Position numbers and translations under genes: made by a program | Shown: one piece after another, positions 3,188 through 63,837 of the stretch | Numbering within the stretch: position 1 is the first letter of the stretch | Layout: each line of letters opens with the position of its first letter | Source: a virus | Direction: 5' to 3' (one strand) | IMG/VR virus record: IMGVR_UViG_3300044712_000991 | Coordinates: 64,001 to 128,000 of that record | DNA: 64,000 nucleotides | Notes under the pieces: model-generated | The model's database searches: none | Seen by the model: the letters and a program-made list of their open reading frames with translations, nothing else | What the model was told of the DNA's origin: nothing

Positions 3188-4541
3188 GTGTTAGCATCTC
3201 CTGCTGAATGTTTTCACGCTCCTGTACATACGCATCCCAACCCGTATCGATGTCGGGGCGATAAAATCCCCCGCCACCATGAAGAACGATGCACGGGTGT
3301 CGGGTATCGTAGTATCGCTGCCGAGCCTGTTCCATGGTAAAGCCATCGTCCTCCAACGCCGCCGAAAGTTGTCGATTCATGCTCTGTAGATCGCGGGGCG
3401 GCCCCAGAGGGTTTTTCTGTAAAGCCTTGGCGACGTTCTTGCCCTGTGCGAGCCATGTTCTGTACAGATACGGGAGCCACGGAGTGGTCACCTTACCCGA
3501 TTCACCCGAGAAGTACTTGTCGGTGGTTGCAAAGAACCCAGGCATCGATCTCGAAAGTGTAACCAACGAGTATGTCTTGAACAAGTCCTTCCACACATCC
3601 ATCCTCACACTCTCAGCCATAACGAGATCGATAGCAGTGCCTGTTTTTGCCAAGTAATGCATGGCGAACTCACGGTCAACTTCAAGCATGTCTACCCGTT
3701 CATTACGCCTCTTCTCTGCCTCACTCATGGTATCCACCGGAGGTGGTGGTGGCTTTATTACCACCTCGTTAGATTTTTTGCGGGTCGGTAGTTTACTTTT
3801 ATTACCTTTCTTAGACGCCTGTAACGACTTGTCCTTCAAAGTGTTAGATGGGGTCTCCTGGTACTGTTGGTACCCAGTGCTTGGTACCGTTGGTACCAGG
3901 CTCTTGGTACCGTTGGTACCAGGCTCTTGGTACCGTTGGTACCAGGCTCTTGGTACCGTTGGTACCCAGTGCTTGGTACTGTTGGTACCAGGTGTTTGAC
4001 CTTCCTGGCTTGGTACCGTTGGTACCAGGCTCTTGGTACCGTTGGTACCAGGTGTTTGACCTTCCTGGCTTGGTACCGTTGGTACCAGGCTCTTGGTACC
4101 GTTGGTACCAGGTTCGGTGATGTCCTTCGAGTCTTCTCCAGCATCCGGGAATGGCCCGGGATTCAGTCGTCTGAATAGCAGTTCGATTGCCCGTTGATCC
4201 TCAGCCTCTGGTCTGCGCGGGACTCCCACCCACGTTTCGTGGTTTTTGTTGATGTACATGTAGTCATCGGGCTCGCGGACGAGGATGTTCTTGCGCACTA
4301 GTGAGTCAAGCGCACCCTTCAGTCGCTTACTGGGAATTCCTGTGTATCTCCGCAGGATGAACTGTGGAATGCGTGCTCGTTTTTGCTTGTACCACCCATA
4401 GGTGAACCGTAGGACGACCGAGATGATGTCCTTCTCCAAAACCTTGAGACCTGCTCGGTTGCTGAGTTCACATATGAGCTCGTTTGCGGTGGTCGTGAAA
4501 CCGTTCGCAAGTTGCACACCCTCTTCACGCTTCTTACTCAT
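3180..4541 (-). CDS. Phage replication initiator, lambda O-like, with intragenic iterons
   Basis: N-terminus MSKKREEGVQLANGFTTTANEL...VVLRFTYGW...YINKN resembles the phage O N-terminal wHTH domain; the central low-complexity part is encoded by iterons. Start re-called at 4541. Confidence 0.8.
   Translation of the reverse strand: MSKKREEGVQLANGFTTTANELICELSNRAGLKVLEKDIISVVLRFTYGWYKQKRARIPQFILRRYTGIPSKRLKGALDSLVRKNILVREPDDYMYINKNHETWVGVPRRPEAEDQRAIELLFRRLNPGPFPDAGEDSKDITEPGTNGTKSLVPTVPSQEGQTPGTNGTKSLVPTVPSQEGQTPGTNSTKHWVPTVPRAWYQRYQEPGTNGTKSLVPTVPSTGYQQYQETPSNTLKDKSLQASKKGNKSKLPTRKKSNEVVIKPPPPPVDTMSEAEKRRNERVDMLEVDREFAMHYLAKTGTAIDLVMAESVRMDVWKDLFKTYSLVTLSRSMPGFFATTDKYFSGESGKVTTPWLPYLYRTWLAQGKNVAKALQKNPLGPPRDLQSMNRQLSAALEDDGFTMEQARQRYYDTRHPCIVLHGGGGFYRPDIDTGWDAYVQERENIQQEMLTHE
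3859..4109. repeat. Ten iterons TGGTAC(C/T)GTTGGTACC; probable replication origin
   Basis: Units start at 3859, 3882, 3905, 3928, 3951, 3974, 4011, 4034, 4071 and 4094 (23-bp period with two 37-bp steps). An AT-rich tract lies at about 3756-3846. Confidence 0.9.
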
Positions 4542-4549
4542 GGGTCTCT

Positions 4550-4643
4550 TTGCTTTTTCCAGAAAATGTGTGTATATTGGGGATACGAAAACCGTGCTTG
4601 GTACCAACAGTACCAAGGTAAGCATAACTGGAGCGAAAATCAA
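4550..4643. promoter_or_regulatory. Two face-to-face sigma70-like promoters with one inverted iteron copy
   Basis: Plus strand: TTGCTT(4550-4555)-17 bp-TATATT(4573-4578). Minus strand: TTGATT(4643-4638)-17 bp-TACCTT(4620-4615). Iteron GGTACCAACAGTACCA at 4600-4615. Confidence 0.6.
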
Positions 4644-4647
4644 ATCC

Positions 4648-5724
4648 ATGAACGACCAGCATTTCCGCACATACGAGCAAAACTGGCTACGACTGATCTG
4701 CCCGGGCTACGAGCAGCACCGCGATGAGGTGTGGACCCCCGACACCCTGTGGTATCGCTCTCGTGTTGAAACATTGGGAGGGACGTTGGTGTCCCAGGGT
4801 TTCGGCAAGTTCTTCAACCTCGGTATGGGTCCTGAGTGGTGCAGAACAACCGCCGAGGATATTGCCACCGCCATCACCAAGGGAGATGCTTGGGCAAGTC
4901 TGAAACTCGATGGGAGCCTACTTATACGCTCGGTGTACGGTGGGCAGGTCATGTTTCGTACCCGCGAATCCCTAGGCTACGAGCAACAACCCAACGCATC
5001 GGAGGTCGGGGACATCTTCGTCGTGAAATCTCCAAAATTGCTCGATCCTGAACTCTACGCGCAGCACTCGCTCCTTTTCGAGTGGACTACTCCTTCGAAC
5101 CAAATCGTGTTGAAGTACGATGAACCACGACTAACGCTTGTAGGGGCCGTTAATCACGCCACGATGCGATATGAGCGCTTCCAGTGGCTAGAGGAGGTTC
5201 GGGCGCACCTCGATGTACCGCTGACTCCCCACTGGCGCTTAGATCGCGCTGGATTTGAGGACCTCATGCACTCGCTGGAGACTCGTACGGATGTCGAGGG
5301 ATGGGTGGTGCGCCTCCATGATGAACAACGCCTCGTGAAAATCAAGTGCGCCCCATACTTGCTGAAACATCGTCTGCGGTTTCATCTGACGGATGATAGC
5401 CTTGTGGATATGTGGCTGACTTCAGGGAGACCTACGCGGGAACAGTTCATGCAGTCCTTCAGGACAACCTTCGATGAGGAGATTCTCATGTGGGCGTTAC
5501 CGAAAATACTTGAACTGTTTGACAAAATTGATGACTTTAACACATCGACTGCAATAGCATTACATATTGCGCATAAAGCGAAAGATGATGGTGTTTCTCG
5601 TAAAGACTTTGCCATCAACATGTTAGAGCGTCACGGAAAAGGTGCTATTTTCGCCATTCACATGAAACTCTTTTCTGGAGAAATAATTGATGACTCTATG
5701 GTCAAGAAGTTCTTGATACCGTAG
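4648..5724 (+). CDS. RNA ligase, T4 Rnl1-like
   Basis: GFGKFFN, motif I KLDGS, LLFEW, EGWVV and KIK motifs; start re-called at ATG 4648. Confidence 0.85.
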   Translation: MNDQHFRTYEQNWLRLICPGYEQHRDEVWTPDTLWYRSRVETLGGTLVSQGFGKFFNLGMGPEWCRTTAEDIATAITKGDAWASLKLDGSLLIRSVYGGQVMFRTRESLGYEQQPNASEVGDIFVVKSPKLLDPELYAQHSLLFEWTTPSNQIVLKYDEPRLTLVGAVNHATMRYERFQWLEEVRAHLDVPLTPHWRLDRAGFEDLMHSLETRTDVEGWVVRLHDEQRLVKIKCAPYLLKHRLRFHLTDDSLVDMWLTSGRPTREQFMQSFRTTFDEEILMWALPKILELFDKIDDFNTSTAIALHIAHKAKDDGVSRKDFAINMLERHGKGAIFAIHMKLFSGEIIDDSMVKKFLIP

Positions 5725-5737
5725 GTTGTAAGTCGTT

Positions 5738-6214
5738 CTATTTCATTATCTTCTCCTTGTCATATGCTTCTTTTTCTAGAGGCATGTGTTTAAGTGCTAG
5801 TCCAACAATACCCATGTATCGTAGGGTATATACAATGAATTGCCACCAGTAGATGATGAAGAACTTCACACCAAACCACCCAAGTCTGTACTGCTGTTCG
5901 ACATGCACCAACTCGTGACGAATGATTTCCGCACGTCTCGCAGTATCCGCCGTTAGGTCTTCACGAATGAATATGTACTGTCCCAAGTTTTGCCCCATGA
6001 CCGCCGAGGATAATGGGAACTTCTTGACCGTGTGGACTCGAATGGTTTGGGGGTGTTGAGCGAACCAGGAGGGTTGTGTTGGGTAACTCAATGGAAACTC
6101 CACGATCTTGGGGGCTCTCCAAAGAAGTCTGAAGAGCCACCCAAGAATATTTCCAAACACTGGCTTGTCACACAGGTTGCACATAGAGCCTCCTGCTAGA
6201 AGTTTTCTGTCCAC
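5738..6214 (-). CDS. DUF4157-like HExxH protein
   Basis: GQNLGQYIFI, IIRHELVHVEQQ, PLEKEAY. Confidence 0.6.
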   Translation of the reverse strand: MDRKLLAGGSMCNLCDKPVFGNILGWLFRLLWRAPKIVEFPLSYPTQPSWFAQHPQTIRVHTVKKFPLSSAVMGQNLGQYIFIREDLTADTARRAEIIRHELVHVEQQYRLGWFGVKFFIIYWWQFIVYTLRYMGIVGLALKHMPLEKEAYDKEKIMK

Positions 6215-7920
6215 CCAAGTAGCGAGACGGTCGTACCAGCATCAACCGACCCTGTGGCACGATAGTAGTGTCCTCGTGGTATGATCCCTACGATGGTGCC
6301 CACCAAGACCATCGTGTCCGCCAGGGGATGACCGCCACCGACACTTCCGAGCGTGTTGCCTAGGAAACCCTTCTGCATGATGGAGCCTGAGTTTGTAAGC
6401 AGTTCCACATACCCCTGGGCACCCGAGGCGCTTTTGTTGATCTGCGCAGTGACAGTCACGAGCATGTTGTTGTTCGTGGTGTTCTGGTATGTGGTGTTCA
6501 TTGCCCGTGTGAGGGTGCTTCCACCATTGCTCTGGAATCTTCCATTGGAGTTCCCGTAGTTGGTGTGGCTGTGATATGCGTCCGCTATACTTTGCGATCC
6601 AGAGGTCAGCGGGTTGTTGCCCGACCACATGCTGCCACTACCAGTAAGCGCCTTGCCTATTTGGAAGCGCATGCGGTTCATGTTGTCGAGCAAGGTGGCC
6701 GTGCGTGGCAAAGACCCTGTTGGATTAGAACCACTCTCCAGGAAGTCCGCTCGTATCACACCCGCACTCATGGTGTAGAAGTTTCGATAATCGTAGAAGT
6801 CACCTATGGTCTGCCCCACGGGGTTTACATCGTAGGCATATCCTAGGACTACCGATTGCGAGAGGGTCTGGGGGAACCTCGGGTCGAACCCAACAGAACT
6901 CACGGACACAAACGAAGCCTGGAGAGAATCGTTGACCACAACCCAGTAGTCACCCGTGCTCGGAGCAGAACTTGAGTACACGGGGACAGTGATGGAACCC
7001 GTAACAATACGTCCATTGACAGCTAGGGCCGCACCCACGGGTTGTGCAAAACTGATGTAGTCATCGGCACCCGTACCGAGCGTACCGAGGTAACTTAGCG
7101 GGGAGAAATCGTCACGATAGACCACAATACCGCTCACATGGGAGTCCTTGCGATGCGTGCTAGTGTAGTCAATGAACCCGAAGTCATCGAGAGTATTTCC
7201 GTGGGGATTCTTTGTCGAAGCAACTCCTGATCCAGCGGCATGAATGTGATCGTACAATGTACTCTGACCAGAAAATACAGCGGGTCCCTCAAGTTTGACG
7301 GAACTGTCCACGGTGTGTACGCGCATGAACTGCCGCATATCGGTCAAAGTCCCCGCAGTGATCATACCCGAACCATCGGATGTGAATTGCGCGAGAGGAA
7401 TTTGAGAACTTCCTGTCGGGGGAACAGCAGTAACAAGGATGCGATAGTCGCCTGTATAACGAGCGTATTCTGTGGTACCCGTGAGCGTCGTGCCCACGGA
7501 TGCAGAGGCCTCTTGGTACTCCGCCACAACATACATCGTACTGTTGGCCGTGGATGTCCACGACTTATTGAATGCCTGTTCAGTACGAAGAATAGACACA
7601 GATGAGGCGAGAGTCACGAGGTCCATGTTGTCTGTTATACCCCACCCCGCGTTAATCGCCAACTCCTCGGAGGACATTTCCGCCACCAACATAGCCGTAG
7701 ACCCATACTGCCCACCCACGCCACGGTAGGTGCCTAGCGTGGGAGAGGCATCCGCCACCGCCTGCCTGAAATTGACAGGTATGGAACCCGTGTAGTAGTG
7801 ACTAAACTTCGCGAGCACGAGGGCCGTAAGTTGTTTCATACCCAACGTTTTCGCAGTTTCGATGTAGTTGAGGTCTGATGACGTAACTCGTTGTCCATTA
7901 AAGAAGTTGGCTCTGTTCAT
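6196..7920 (-). CDS. Baseplate wedge/tail fibre attachment protein
   Basis: The N-terminus MNRANFFNGQRVTSSDLN is typical of myophage baseplate-fibre proteins; last gene of the tail module. Confidence 0.55.
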   Translation of the reverse strand: MNRANFFNGQRVTSSDLNYIETAKTLGMKQLTALVLAKFSHYYTGSIPVNFRQAVADASPTLGTYRGVGGQYGSTAMLVAEMSSEELAINAGWGITDNMDLVTLASSVSILRTEQAFNKSWTSTANSTMYVVAEYQEASASVGTTLTGTTEYARYTGDYRILVTAVPPTGSSQIPLAQFTSDGSGMITAGTLTDMRQFMRVHTVDSSVKLEGPAVFSGQSTLYDHIHAAGSGVASTKNPHGNTLDDFGFIDYTSTHRKDSHVSGIVVYRDDFSPLSYLGTLGTGADDYISFAQPVGAALAVNGRIVTGSITVPVYSSSAPSTGDYWVVVNDSLQASFVSVSSVGFDPRFPQTLSQSVVLGYAYDVNPVGQTIGDFYDYRNFYTMSAGVIRADFLESGSNPTGSLPRTATLLDNMNRMRFQIGKALTGSGSMWSGNNPLTSGSQSIADAYHSHTNYGNSNGRFQSNGGSTLTRAMNTTYQNTTNNNMLVTVTAQINKSASGAQGYVELLTNSGSIMQKGFLGNTLGSVGGGHPLADTMVLVGTIVGIIPRGHYYRATGSVDAGTTVSLLGWTENF

Positions 7921-59355: not shown

Positions 59356-59815
59356 TGGTGGACATGCCGGGAGTCGAACCCGGTTCTACCAAGTACCACG
59401 TACAGAGTCTTTCACAGGTTTGGTCGGTTTACCACGCATCCTGAGGCAAGGACTCCGACAAACCTCCGTCCTCGGATGTTGCGTTCCCACAGCACAATCC
59501 CCAGGGAACGCCATGGGGTACAACACGTACCGCGATCGATCGGCTTTTGTTATCGTGAGGCAAGAGCATTTGCTGTGTCCGTCCGGGTGGAAACGGTCTT
59601 GCGACCTCGGTGCCTACTCTTGAGCCGACTACCCCACACCCTAGTGGCTGTTAGGCCAGTTCGAGTTCACCCGCGCCGACCAACGCCAGAGCGTCGTCGA
59701 AGGTGAAGGCAGAGATTTGTTCTGCGTTTGTTTTTTGAACCCTGATTTACGTGGTGTGTTCACCCACGACCTGCACCCTGGACATAACACTCAGTATCGA
59801 GGCCAAGTCATGCCC
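59356..59815 (-). ncRNA. ssrA: tmRNA (460 nt); tag ORF 59725-59651 encodes AEQISAFTFDDALALVGAGELELA*
   Basis: Acceptor GGGCATG/CATGTCC-ACCA with G3.U70; T-arm CCGGGTTCGACTCCCGG; pk1-like CGTGG..CCACGTAAA; GCA resume codon. Confidence 0.92.
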
Positions 59816-63267: not shown

Positions 63268-63296
63268 AATATACAACAGCCAGATATGAAAGTCAA
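63268..63296 (-). promoter_or_regulatory. Early sigma70-type promoter
   Basis: TTGACT-17 bp-TATATT. Confidence 0.8.
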
Positions 63297-63323
63297 GTGA
63301 AAAATGAAGAATCTTTGGAGGGG

Positions 63324-63396
63324 AGCCACCGGAGGGACTTGAACCCCCGACCCGCGCATTACAGGTGCGCCGCTCTACCAACTGAGCTACAGTGGC
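63324..63396 (-). tRNA. tRNA-Thr(UGU)
   Basis: Cloverleaf; anticodon arm GCGCA-CCTGTAA-TGCGC (C33); CCA not encoded. Confidence 0.9.
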
Positions 63397-63402
63397 TAGA
63401 AT

Positions 63403-63566
63403 CACAAGAGGCACCGGTGGTGGAACAGTCCAATAAAGGGGTAGATGGTACTTGAAACCATCGTCGTGTTACTGGCTTGCGCCCTGCTCCTCGGTTTTTG
63501 CCGAGGACTCCTCGGAGCCCGTATGCACTACACGCATCCACCGTTCGTGGCTACCGGCCTCTTGTG
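63403..63566 (-). ncRNA. Candidate 164-nt structured ncRNA
   Basis: 10-bp closing stem CACAAGAGGC/GCCTCTTGTG, further stacked helices, a GCAA tetraloop and a T-loop-like hairpin. Confidence 0.6.
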
Positions 63567-63583
63567 CTTGAAATACACCCAGG

Positions 63584-63757
63584 GCTGTGGCGGGATTTCA
63601 CTCGCAACTCCACACCCTGCCTAGCCATTCGGCCACCTCCCTTCGTACGACCGGGAGCGGGGGATTCGAACCCACCATACTAAGTGTGTCTGTTATCTTT
63701 GTTCCGCTCCTCATCTCGTACCCGAATGGTACGCGAGGTTACGTCTAACCCCACAGC
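63584..63757 (-). ncRNA. Candidate 174-nt ncRNA with a circularly permuted tRNA-like (YrlA-type) domain at 63611-63688
   Basis: Order T-arm, loop-capped acceptor stem, D-arm, closed by CACACTT/GGGTGTG; outer stem GCTGTGG/CCACAGC. Confidence 0.65.
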
Positions 63758-63760
63758 ATG

Positions 63761-63837
63761 TGGTCGGAGCGACACGACTTGAACGTGCGGCCACTCGCTC
63801 CCAAAGCGAGTGCTCTACCGGGCTGAGCTACGCTCCG
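63761..63837 (-). tRNA. tRNA-Pro(UGG)
   Basis: CGGAGCG acceptor; anticodon arm CTCGC-TTTGGGA-GCGAG; CCA encoded. Confidence 0.95.

What the first reader, a model, noticed from the sequence alone, without database searches (positions are those of the whole stretch)
63584..63757. Phage ncRNA with a circularly permuted tRNA-mimic domain (YrlA/Y-RNA-like topology) between tRNA-Pro and tRNA-Thr
Seen: the minus strand of 63688-63611 reads CACACTT-AGTAT-GGTGGG TTCGAAT CCCCC-G CTCCC GGTCGTACGAA GGGAG G-TG GCC GAATGGCTA GGC A-GGGTGTG. This is a T-arm first, then an acceptor-like stem sealed by a loop (no free CCA), then a D-arm (A14, GG). The whole is closed by a 7-bp anticodon-equivalent stem, and the domain is 78 nt, tRNA-sized. 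It lies within a 174-nt element closed by GCTGTGG/CCACAGC, with extra hairpins (GGTTA-GACG-TAACC; GTACC-ATTCG-GGTAC), starting 3 nt after the tRNA-Pro CCA. The acceptor loop holds the palindrome TCGTACGA. Established: bacterial YrlA Y RNAs carry a tRNA-like domain that lacks a free CCA end, and their anticodon-equivalent stem links to a Ro60-binding stem. Inference: this is either a divergent phage Y RNA or a new tRNA-mimic RNA. It could decoy T/D-loop-recognising nucleases or modification enzymes and might dimerise through the palindromic loop. I could not identify a canonical Ro60-binding motif, and no Ro60 gene is in this window.
Basis: partly seen in the sequence, partly recalled or inferred. 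Interest (0 to 1): 0.85.

Follow-up and report, generated by a model that had tools for sequence, protein, structure and literature searches.

The report
Orphan back-to-front tRNA mimic in phage
Between two tRNA genes of an uncultured 194-kb phage lies a small non-coding stretch that folds like a tRNA written in rotated order. This is the same design as the tRNA-like part of bacterial Y RNAs, but it lacks their Ro60-docking site and any Ro60 gene, and it is the most worn copy of its kind that I found.

Summary
On the minus strand, 63688-63611 reads closing stem, 5-nt variable loop, T-arm, loop-capped acceptor stem, U8, D-arm, closing stem. Neither half belongs to a detectable tRNA.

The same design occurs in 45 other stretches of phages and bacteria that overlap no tRNA. 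In five phage contigs it lies directly beside a Ro60/TROVE gene, and one is a sub-threshold Rfam YrlA match. Across 39 such modules (this one included) the capping helix covaries. The YrlA-like topology is therefore real.

It cannot be filed as a Y RNA. There is no YrlA or YrlB match, and the 5' flank resembles Ro60-linked handles no better than shuffles. The complete genome has no TROVE, Ro60-vWA, DUF2828 or RtcB.

It is the only copy with a T-stem mismatch and has 5 of 7 cap pairs. A competing fold is 5.6 kcal/mol more stable. The nearest relative lacks the whole tRNA region, so conservation could not be tested.

Best reading (0.42): a processed, partner-unknown tRNA-mimic RNA. Main rival (0.33): a decaying relic.

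This scan has reported similar permuted tRNA mimics on other phage DNA; this one has neither of their proposed partners. I class it as a new variant of a known kind, of moderate interest.

The parts
63761..63837 (-). tRNA-Pro(UGG) with encoded CCA; upstream neighbour in the same transcription unit
   Evidence: ARAGORN; Rfam tRNA 63.6 bits
63584..63757 (-). Cassette 1 (174 nt): outer stem GCTGTGG/CCACAGC, two 5-bp hairpins (63750-63737, 63732-63718), a 29-nt purine-rich linker (63717-63689), the tRNA-like domain and a 20-nt 3' linker
   Evidence: Sequence. The outer stem is kept in the minimum-energy fold of the cassette, and partly in that of the whole 363-nt spacer. Not above chance on its own (z -1.46).
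63611..63688 (-). 78-nt circularly permuted tRNA-like domain, opened at the anticodon stem and capped at the acceptor end
   Evidence: Model R1 34.5 bits; ARAGORN tRNA call after re-permutation; cloverleaf as minimum-energy fold
63659..63676 (-). T-arm: stem GG(U)GGG/CCCCC with one U.C mismatch or bulged U; loop UUCGAAU (U54 U55 C56 A58 intact)
   Evidence: Sequence. It is the only one of 39 aligned modules with a non-standard T-stem pair.
63637..63657 (-). Acceptor-equivalent stem CUCCC/GGGAG (5 bp, flanked by G.G and G.A) capped by the 11-nt loop GGUCGUACGAA
   Evidence: Sequence. 5 of 7 model pairs, whereas 39 of 46 other tRNA-free modules have 6-7.
63619..63636 (-). G7, U8, G9 and a class-II-type D-arm GCC-GAAUGGCUA-GGC (A14, A15, G18, G19, A21 present; A15 can form the Levitt pair with U48 at 63677)
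   Evidence: Sequence; 3 of 3 D-stem pairs
63405..63566 (-). Cassette 2: a second structured non-coding domain closed by a 14-bp bulged helix, with a GNRA hairpin and a T-arm-like hairpin (63462-63444); class unknown
   Evidence: Fold z -2.72, 3 of 200 shuffles as good. It forms a separate domain in the fold of the whole spacer. Only a 17.5-bit YrlA match, which bridges into the next tRNA's D-arm.
63321..63397 (-). Downstream tRNA: Thr(UGU) with C33 by Rfam's alignment, Tyr(GTA) by ARAGORN
63268..63296 (-). Next TTGACT-17-TATATT promoter, marking the start of the following unit directly after the downstream tRNA
   Evidence: Promoter scan. An identical promoter lies upstream, outside the window, at window-equivalent 64697-64669.

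Best explanation
Cassette 1 is a gene for a small non-coding RNA whose core is a YrlA-type tRNA mimic. It is a tRNA body (T-arm, D-arm, elbow nucleotides) with the acceptor end sealed by a loop and the anticodon loop replaced by a 7-bp stem that leads into flanking RNA.

Shown:
- the four helices are in tRNA register and all elbow and tertiary nucleotides are intact;
- the design is a recurrent, covarying RNA module in phages and bacteria.

Inferred:
- It is transcribed from the TTGACT-17-TATATT promoter about 900 nt upstream, as part of one unit: phrog_12224 gene, two tiny membrane-peptide ORFs, tRNA-Pro, cassette 1, cassette 2, downstream tRNA.
- The enzymes that process the flanking tRNAs (RNase P and 3'-end trimming) set it free.
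- It folds into an L-shape that the host's elbow-reading enzymes accept, as was shown experimentally for Salmonella YrlA.
- It serves as a stable docking or sponge module for a tRNA-binding factor.

It has no recognisable Ro60 handle and the phage has no Ro60-like gene. I therefore take the partner to be something other than a phage Ro60, still unidentified. The phage's other investments in the translation apparatus (8 tRNAs, a tmRNA, a T4 Rnl1-type RNA ligase) make a role in the conflict over host tRNAs the most natural setting.
For: - Sequence and register of all four helices.
- The isolated domain folds to the cloverleaf.
- ARAGORN accepts the re-permuted domain as a tRNA.
- Model R1, built without it, finds it at E about 1e-8.
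- Neither half is part of a tRNA.
- Of 142 R1 matches, the 46 that overlap no tRNA form a separate class: 39 of 46 have 6-7 of 7 cap pairs, whereas the 80 tandem-tRNA junctions spread over 0-7.
- In 39 aligned modules, all 7 cap pairs show double changes and 91.9% of cells are paired. No shuffle reaches the observed covariation, and slid controls give 37-54% paired.
- Three other complete phage genomes (G001, G003, G015) also carry such modules without TROVE or DUF2828.
- It lies inside a promoter-driven unit between two intact tRNAs.
- No coding signal lies over the spacer.
- An Rnl1-type RNA ligase is present in the genome.
- Modification of YrlA by TruB and DusA is reported in Chen et al. 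2014 (PMC4201824).
Against: - No homologue of the cassette was found anywhere, so nothing shows that selection acts on this copy.
- The nearest relative, G007, is syntenic only up to about genome position 114 kb and has no tRNAs.
- It is the weakest module of its class: the only T-stem mismatch among 39, 5 of 7 cap pairs, 34.5 bits against 50-68 for clear members.
- Enforcing the tRNA-like fold costs 5.6 kcal/mol against a fold in which the linker GGAGCGG pairs with CCGCUCC.
- No partner gene was found.
- There are no expression data.
Confidence: 0.42

Rival explanations
1. Evolutionary relic. This is the remains of a Y-like RNA whose handle and partner gene were lost, or of a tandemly duplicated class-II-type tRNA whose outer halves were deleted. 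It is still transcribed because it sits in a tRNA operon, but it has no function of its own.
For: - It is the most degenerate of 46 tRNA-free modules: T stem 4 of 5 (all others 5 of 5) and cap 5 of 7.
- It has no Ro-type handle.
- No partner gene was found.
- It is a single copy, where Ro60-linked loci usually carry 2-4 tandem modules.
- It is absent from the nearest relative.
- A competing fold is more stable.
- The linker GAGGAGC resembles the expected 5' acceptor strand at 5 of 7 positions, though that is chance-level by my estimate.
Against: - All elbow and tertiary positions (U8, A14, A15:U48, G18, G19, A21, U54, U55, C56, A58) are intact, and the only defects are in stems. The counts are too small to be significant.
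- The closing stem is 7 bp, two more than a tRNA anticodon stem, with non-tRNA nucleotides at positions 33 and 37. That is a derived, closed design and not a leftover.
- No trace of the missing tRNA halves lies in the flanks.
- Phage genomes rarely keep 363 nt of junk between two genes.
Confidence: 0.33
2. A true Y RNA that works with the host's own Ro60 (Rsr), with a docking helix too divergent to recognise.
For: - The complete phage genome G001 (L004) carries RNAs with the canonical CGAAUGC...UUGUCG helix and no TROVE gene, so phages can encode Y RNAs without encoding Ro60.
- The tRNA-like module is of the type found next to phage Ro60 genes.
- AGCGGAA lies 29 nt upstream of the T-arm, where Ro60-linked elements have the motif GNCGRA.
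Against: - No YrlA or YrlB match covers the element, even at E up to 10.
- The AGCGGAA stretch fails the published motif GNCGAAN0-1G and has no partner strand in the 3' flank.
- Alignment of the 5' flank to 16 Ro60-linked (and L004 YrlA-type) handles is no better than shuffles: 465 of 500 shuffles score as high.
- The host, and whether it has Rsr, is unknown.
Confidence: 0.1
3. A processing or punctuation element. The tRNA-like shape only recruits RNase P, RNase Z or the CCA-adding enzyme to cut the polycistronic transcript, as with M. smegmatis YrlA or the mascRNA of MALAT1. The cuts would release or stabilise cassette 2 and the flanking tRNAs.
For: - It sits in a tRNA operon, 3 nt after a CCA.
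- M. smegmatis YrlA is cut by RNase P in its capped acceptor stem (PMC4201824).
Against: - The same paper attributes cleavage to a 7-bp acceptor stem. YrlA RNAs with shorter stems are not cut, and this one has 5 bp.
- There is no CCA or discriminator context in the cap loop.
- The flanking tRNAs already supply processing sites.
Confidence: 0.08
4. Chance resemblance, or an unrecognised protein-coding stretch.
For: ORFs of 60-68 codons cross the spacer on both strands.
Against: - The T-arm, cap, D-arm and closing helix all lie in tRNA register. My estimate for the two in-register helices alone is 1e-5 or less.
- Model R1 gives E about 1e-8.
- The ORFs have no PHROG match, and one overlaps a tRNA gene.
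Confidence: 0.03

Closest known systems
YrlA, the tRNA-like Y RNA of bacteria and mycobacteriophages (Rfam RF02553; Chen et al. 2014, PMC4201824)
   Same: Same order of parts: V region, T-arm, loop-capped acceptor-like stem, D-arm, with the anticodon-equivalent stem leading out of the domain. Same conserved T- and D-loop nucleotides, including an A15:U48 Levitt pair. Found in phages.
   Different: - No Ro60-binding helix (GNCGAAN0-1G), no YUAY motif, no adjacent or distant Ro60 gene, and no Rfam match.
- The D-arm is of the class-II tRNA type (3-bp stem GCC/GGC), not the near-invariant GCUC/GAGC.
- The domain is embedded in a longer cassette with extra hairpins.
Uncultured-phage Y-like RNAs next to Ro60/TROVE genes, found here (L005, L110, L118, L144, L286)
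   Same: Same capped module. Several have the same UGGCNGARUGG D-arm. L110, L144, L118 and L005 are also opened at the anticodon-equivalent stem. They lie among or beside tRNA genes.
   Different: They come in tandem sets of 2-4, share a conserved 5' handle (GGCGUAGA..., GCGGAUACUUC...) and a pairing 3' strand, and abut the TROVE gene. This element has none of these features.
Stable RNAs of unknown function in the tRNA clusters of phages T4 and T5
   Same: Stem-closed, non-coding cassettes that fill gaps between phage tRNA genes and are released by tRNA processing.
   Different: As far as I know, those are not described as permuted tRNA mimics. I made no sequence comparison.
Circularly permuted tRNA genes of Cyanidioschyzon merolae (my own knowledge)
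   Same: The 3' half lies before the 5' half, with the acceptor strands joined by a short linker.
   Different: Those mature into real tRNAs through a circular intermediate made by the eukaryotic/archaeal splicing machinery, and they keep an anticodon loop. Here there is no anticodon loop, no bulge-helix-bulge motif and a bacterial setting.
tRNA-like domain of tmRNA, including two-piece permuted tmRNA (Rfam RF00023, RF04321)
   Same: A T-arm plus acceptor-type helix used outside decoding. The phage has its own tmRNA at 59356-59815.
   Different: tmRNA has a free, alanine-accepting CCA end and a tag reading frame. This element has neither, and only its T-loop matches the tmRNA model, at 9.7 bits.

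Membership tests
YrlA / bacterial Y RNA (RF02553) | tRNA-like domain in the order T-arm, capped acceptor-like stem, D-arm, with the tertiary nucleotides | tested here: met
   Sequence; R1 34.5 bits; ARAGORN after re-permutation. Weak points are the T-stem mismatch and the 5-bp cap.
YrlA / bacterial Y RNA (RF02553) | Ro60-binding helix with GNCGAAN0-1G on the 5' strand (Chen et al. 2014) | tested here: not met
   The motif regex finds nothing in the 75-nt 5' flank. The nearest string, AGCGGAAC, fails the motif and has no partner strand. The flank is no more similar to 16 Ro60-linked (and L004 YrlA-type) handles than shuffles are.
YrlA / bacterial Y RNA (RF02553) | Match to the Rfam covariance model at the gathering score (69 bits) | tested here: not met
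   No match on the element at E up to 10. The only genome match is 17.5 bits at 63348-63485, which bridges cassette 2 and the next tRNA. There is no YrlB match either.
YrlA / bacterial Y RNA (RF02553) | Encoded next to, or together with, a Ro60/TROVE gene | tested here: not met
   No TROVE (PF05731), Ro60-vWA (PF25045) or RtcB in the 194-kb genome, which CheckV rates 100% complete. The host genome is unknown.
YrlA / bacterial Y RNA (RF02553) | Binds Ro60 and is modified by TruB/DusA in vivo | not testable with these tools
   Needs immunoprecipitation and modification mapping.
Canonical tRNA | Native 5'-to-3' order with free acceptor end and anticodon loop | tested here: not met
   ARAGORN and the Rfam tRNA model find nothing at 63584-63757. 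The acceptor end is looped and there is no anticodon loop.
Junction of two adjacent tRNA genes (the known false positive for YrlA searches) | The T-arm belongs to a complete upstream tRNA and the D-arm to a complete downstream tRNA | tested here: not met
   No tRNA overlaps either half, and the flanks give no partial tRNA match.
ACAGCAA-handle RNAs with a DUF2828 partner (earlier notes of this scan; unpublished) | Terminal stem followed by unpaired ACAGCAA, with a DUF2828 gene in the genome | tested here: not met
   No ACAGCAA in the spacer and no PF11443 match in the genome.
Two-headed tRNA-mimic RNA with a DUF7873 partner (earlier notes of this scan; unpublished) | About 360-380 nt of RNA with two permuted tRNA-like modules, directly after a protein of about 245 aa | tested here: inconclusive
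   The spacer is 363 nt but holds only one R1 module, and cassette 2 has only a T-arm-like hairpin. No protein of about 245 aa lies upstream. No DUF7873 appeared among the 25 best families for 69 ORFs of 170-330 aa. I did not know the Pfam accession and could not search for it directly.

The most novel reading that the evidence does not exclude
A Ro60-independent phage tRNA mimic with a job of its own in the fight over host tRNAs. Sealed at the acceptor end and ending in a stem where the anticodon loop should be, it looks like a tRNA nicked in the anticodon loop. It could soak up a host tRNA-directed defence factor or elbow-binding enzyme. Alternatively, it could engage the phage's own Rnl1-type ligase, either alone or together with cassette 2.
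Probability: 0.15. Interest if true: 0.7.

Novelty: new variant of a known kind. Interest (0 to 1): 0.4.

Why it matters
tRNA-shaped Y RNAs have been studied only as partners of Ro60. This scan's census suggests that the capped, rotated tRNA module is a common building block in phage tRNA clusters. It also shows that several complete phage genomes, this one included, carry the module with no Ro60-like gene.

If this copy is active, tRNA mimicry by phages would not be tied to Ro60, and some other host or phage factor would be reading the tRNA elbow. If it is a relic, it records the loss of a Y-RNA system in a deeply divergent myovirus lineage.

Either way, one RNA blot from infected cells would decide the question. 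The practical obstacle is that the phage is known only from a metagenome.

Tried and rejected
Searches for homologues of the cassette all found nothing:
- blastn against 50,697 phage records found only the flanking tRNAs.
- Exact-pattern scans of IMG/VR, 185,579 species genomes and JGI metagenomes found only analogous modules.
- DNA and covariance-model searches of the four nearest IMG/VR records were empty.
- The neighbouring 191-aa protein has no homologue among 5.8 billion proteins. The 913-aa neighbour matches only through its Ig domain.
- The nearest relative is syntenic only over the structural and replication block.

Other ideas rejected:
- Rfam: no family fits either cassette.
- A degenerate Ro handle (AGCGGAAC, AGAUAACA): rejected by the shuffle test.
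- A scan for GCGGAA upstream of a T-loop mostly returned ordinary tRNA-Leu genes. Its only useful result was L286.
- The phrog_12224 protein that heads the unit as the RNA's partner: its homologues in CR3-like and T7-like phages are not next to tRNAs.
- An outer, normal-order tRNA formed by GCUGUGG/CCACAGC: no D-arm or T-arm fits.
- A coding explanation: no support.
- The loop palindrome as a dimerisation signal: undermined by the genome-wide excess of CGTACG.
- Fold energies do not discriminate: z -0.45 for the domain and -1.46 for the cassette.
- My first constrained fold used a mis-sized structure string and is void. One search is the valid one.

Full report
**What is there**

The window is positions 64001-128000 of a 194,278-bp IMG/VR virus record that CheckV rates complete. 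The phage is a myovirus with no close cultured relative. Its tail sheath matches only Bacillus phage G, at 27% identity. On the minus strand, ARAGORN and Rfam find tRNA-Pro(UGG) at 63761-63837 and a second tRNA at 63321-63397, with 363 nt between them.

- CACACUU (63688-63682)
- AGUAU
- T-arm GGUGGG-UUCGAAU-CCCCC (63676-63659)
- G
- CUCCC, the 11-nt loop GGUCGUACGAA, then GGGAG (63657-63637)
- G, then UG
- D-arm GCC-GAAUGGCUA-GGC (63633-63619)
- A
- GGGUGUG (63617-63611)

The outer stem GCUGUGG/CCACAGC (63757-63751 with 63590-63584), the two 5-bp hairpins and the 3-nt gap after the CCA of tRNA-Pro are also as stated.

**Is it more than chance?**

Rotated into native order, the 78-nt domain is called a tRNA by ARAGORN at 90% of its default threshold. 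Its minimum-energy fold is the four-way cloverleaf. The nucleotides that build the tRNA elbow are all present: U8, A14, G18, G19, A21, U54, U55, C56, A58 and an A15:U48 Levitt pair.

I built a covariance model (R1) from nine other phage modules. It finds the element at 34.5 bits, and the next match in the window scores 17 bits. That score alone is not proof. In 96 sources, R1 gave 142 matches, and 80 of them are junctions of two adjacent tRNA genes scoring 25-45 bits. This is the false positive that Chen et al. 2014 warned about.

Two things separate this element from such junctions. First, no tRNA overlaps either half. Second, the cap helix and the 7-bp closing helix both lie in the exact tRNA register. 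The closing helix is two pairs longer than an anticodon stem, and it has non-tRNA nucleotides where positions 33 and 37 would be. It is therefore a derived, closed design.

The outer 174-nt closure and the small hairpins are plausible but not significant (z -1.46). The minimum-energy fold of the whole spacer does split it into two stem-closed domains.

**What kind of thing is it?**

Pattern scans for a T-loop, a short gap and a class-II-type D-arm recovered the same architecture elsewhere in phage contigs, metagenomes and bacterial genomes. The 46 R1 matches that overlap no tRNA form a distinct class. Of these, 39 have 6-7 of 7 cap pairs, and every one except this element has a perfect T stem.

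On 39 aligned modules, all seven cap pairs show compensatory double changes and 91.9% of cells are paired. No shuffle reached the observed covariation, and slid controls gave 37-54% paired. The alignment was fitted to the model, so this result leans toward the structure.

The modules sit directly beside Ro60/TROVE genes in five phage contigs:
- L005
- L110, two tandem modules and then a 535-aa TROVE + vWA_Ro60 protein
- L118 and L144
- L286, three tandem modules immediately upstream of the TROVE ORF

In L004 the module is part of a 38.5-bit YrlA match, beside a 50-bit YrlA match and a 32.5-bit YrlB match. All three carry the CGAAUGC...UUGUCG helix.

Two subtypes exist. One is opened at the anticodon stem: YrlA, L110 and this element. 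The other is opened at the long variable arm and keeps a full anticodon arm: L022, L198/L204, L209 and the myxobacterial loci.

**Why it cannot be filed as a Y RNA**

- No YrlA or YrlB match touches the element, even at E up to 10.
- The published 5'-strand motif GNCGAAN0-1G is absent. The nearest string, AGCGGAAC at -29, fails it and has no partner strand.
- The 5' flank aligns to 16 Ro60-linked (and L004 YrlA-type) handles no better than its own dinucleotide shuffles. 465 of 500 shuffles score as high.
- The genome has no TROVE, Ro60-vWA, DUF2828 or RtcB.
- The handles proposed in earlier notes of this scan are absent too. There is no stem plus ACAGCAA with DUF2828. A second permuted module after a DUF7873 gene is not evident either. 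I could not search for DUF7873 by accession.

Lack of a phage Ro60 is not unusual. Three other complete phage genomes with such modules (G001, G003, G015) also lack TROVE and DUF2828. G001's RNAs have the canonical Ro helix, which implies use of a host protein.

**Arguments for a relic**

- This is the weakest module of its class. It has the only non-standard T-stem pair among 39 modules, 5 of 7 cap pairs and an 11-nt cap loop.
- It is a single copy, where Ro60-linked loci have 2-4.
- Enforcing the tRNA-like fold in the 177-nt cassette gives -57.4 kcal/mol against -63.0 for a fold in which the linker GGAGCGG pairs with CCGCUCC of the T and cap strands. Nearest-neighbour energies ignore the tertiary contacts of a tRNA elbow.
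- No homologue of the cassette was found in any collection.
- The closest relative, G007 (66% sheath identity), is syntenic only from genome position 72.7 kb to 114.2 kb and has no tRNA at all.
- The neighbouring 191-aa protein is unique among 5.8 billion proteins.

The whole tRNA and non-coding-RNA region is a lineage-specific accessory block, so conservation and covariation of this particular copy cannot be tested.

**Context**

An identical TTGACT-17-TATATT promoter lies about 900 nt upstream (window-equivalent 64697-64669). Another lies directly after the downstream tRNA (63296-63268). The unit therefore reads: phrog_12224 gene, two 37-codon membrane-peptide ORFs, tRNA-Pro, cassette 1, cassette 2, downstream tRNA.

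Homologues of the phrog_12224 protein in CR3-like and T7-like phages are not beside tRNAs, so it is not a candidate partner.

The genome carries 8 tRNAs, a 460-nt tmRNA and a T4 Rnl1-type RNA ligase. These are typical equipment of phages that face attacks on tRNAs.

Cassette 2 (63405-63566) is a separate structured domain of unknown class (z -2.72).

**Verdict**

The YrlA-like design is real and belongs to a recurrent, covarying module class. Membership in the Y RNA family fails on the handle, the Rfam model and the partner gene.

My preferred reading, at 0.42, is a processed tRNA-mimic RNA with an unknown, non-phage-Ro60 partner. The main rival, at 0.33, is a decaying relic. A Y RNA for host Ro60 (0.10) and a processing signal (0.08) are minor rivals.

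The dimerisation idea loses its basis, because CGTACG is threefold over-represented across the genome.

Similar permuted tRNA mimics were reported before by this scan on other phage DNA. This one differs in having neither of their proposed partners.

Noticed in passing
window 63321-63397 (-): The downstream tRNA is ambiguous. With the 5-bp stem GCGCA/UGCGC the loop is CCUGUAA, which gives Thr(UGU) but with C33 in place of the near-universal U33. ARAGORN shifts the loop and calls Tyr(GTA), yet there is no long variable arm as bacterial tRNA-Tyr has. The gene ends ...CUCCC with no encoded CCA.
   Followed up: partly
window 63405-63566 (-): Second stem-closed non-coding domain. It has a 14-bp bulged helix CACAAGAGGCCGGU/ACCGGUGCCUCUUGUG, a GGC-GCAA-GCC hairpin, and a T-arm-like hairpin GAUGGU-UUCAAGU-ACCAUC (63462-63444). 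A 7-bp helix GGAGCAG/CUGUUCC is followed by ACCA, like an acceptor end. The fold z-score is -2.72 and there is no Rfam family.
   Followed up: partly
whole genome G000; e.g. window 63643-63650: The palindrome CGTACG occurs 172 times in 194 kb against about 57 expected from composition. TCGTACGA occurs 10 times against about 3. Palindromes are usually depleted in phages, so this enrichment points to a binding or modification site.
   Followed up: no
window 4402-5724 (+): A 440-aa protein with the T4 RNA ligase 1 catalytic domain and C-terminal (tRNA-binding) domain. It is a tRNA-repair ligase in a phage that also carries tRNAs, a tmRNA and the tRNA mimic.
   Followed up: partly
window 59356-59815 (-): A 460-nt tmRNA found by Rfam (83 bits) but missed by ARAGORN in both runs.
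   Followed up: no
L004:11728-12938 (IMG/VR 70-kb complete phage genome): One YrlB-like and two YrlA-like RNAs carry the canonical Ro60 helix, all below Rfam's thresholds, in a genome with no TROVE gene. Directly after them lies a 264-aa protein with only a vWA domain.
   Followed up: partly
L286 minus strand, about 6200-6900 (IMG/VR 111-kb complete genome): Three tandem capped tRNA-mimic RNAs share the handle CCCGGUGCC...(G)UUACUUC...CAACCUCGGG, and the TROVE/Ro60 ORF starts immediately after them. This makes a clean phage Ro60-Y RNA operon.
   Followed up: partly
L022:4820-5060; L204:200-560; L209; L171, L178, L181, L182 (Myxococcota): A second subtype: complete class-II tRNAs (T-arm, capped acceptor, D-arm and a full anticodon arm with U33 and purine 37) opened at the long variable arm, which becomes the closing helix. 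They are often in tandem. The myxobacterial copies share CCUACACGCA upstream and have no TROVE gene within 2.5 kb.
   Followed up: partly
genome 157315-157504 (-), outside the window: The 190-nt spacer between tRNA-Met and tRNA-Val is another stem-closed non-coding cassette (GGUACAGUA.../...UACUGUAC). It contains CGUCGUACGC and has no T-loop. The 448-nt Leu-Met spacer instead holds two small membrane-peptide ORFs.
   Followed up: no
L001:2296-2670 (-) = window-equivalent 64296-64670: A basic 124-aa protein of phrog_12224 (E 5e-32) heads the transcription unit that contains the tRNAs and both cassettes. Homologues are early genes of T7-like phages and of CR3/phiTE-like myoviruses. Its function is unknown.
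   Followed up: partly
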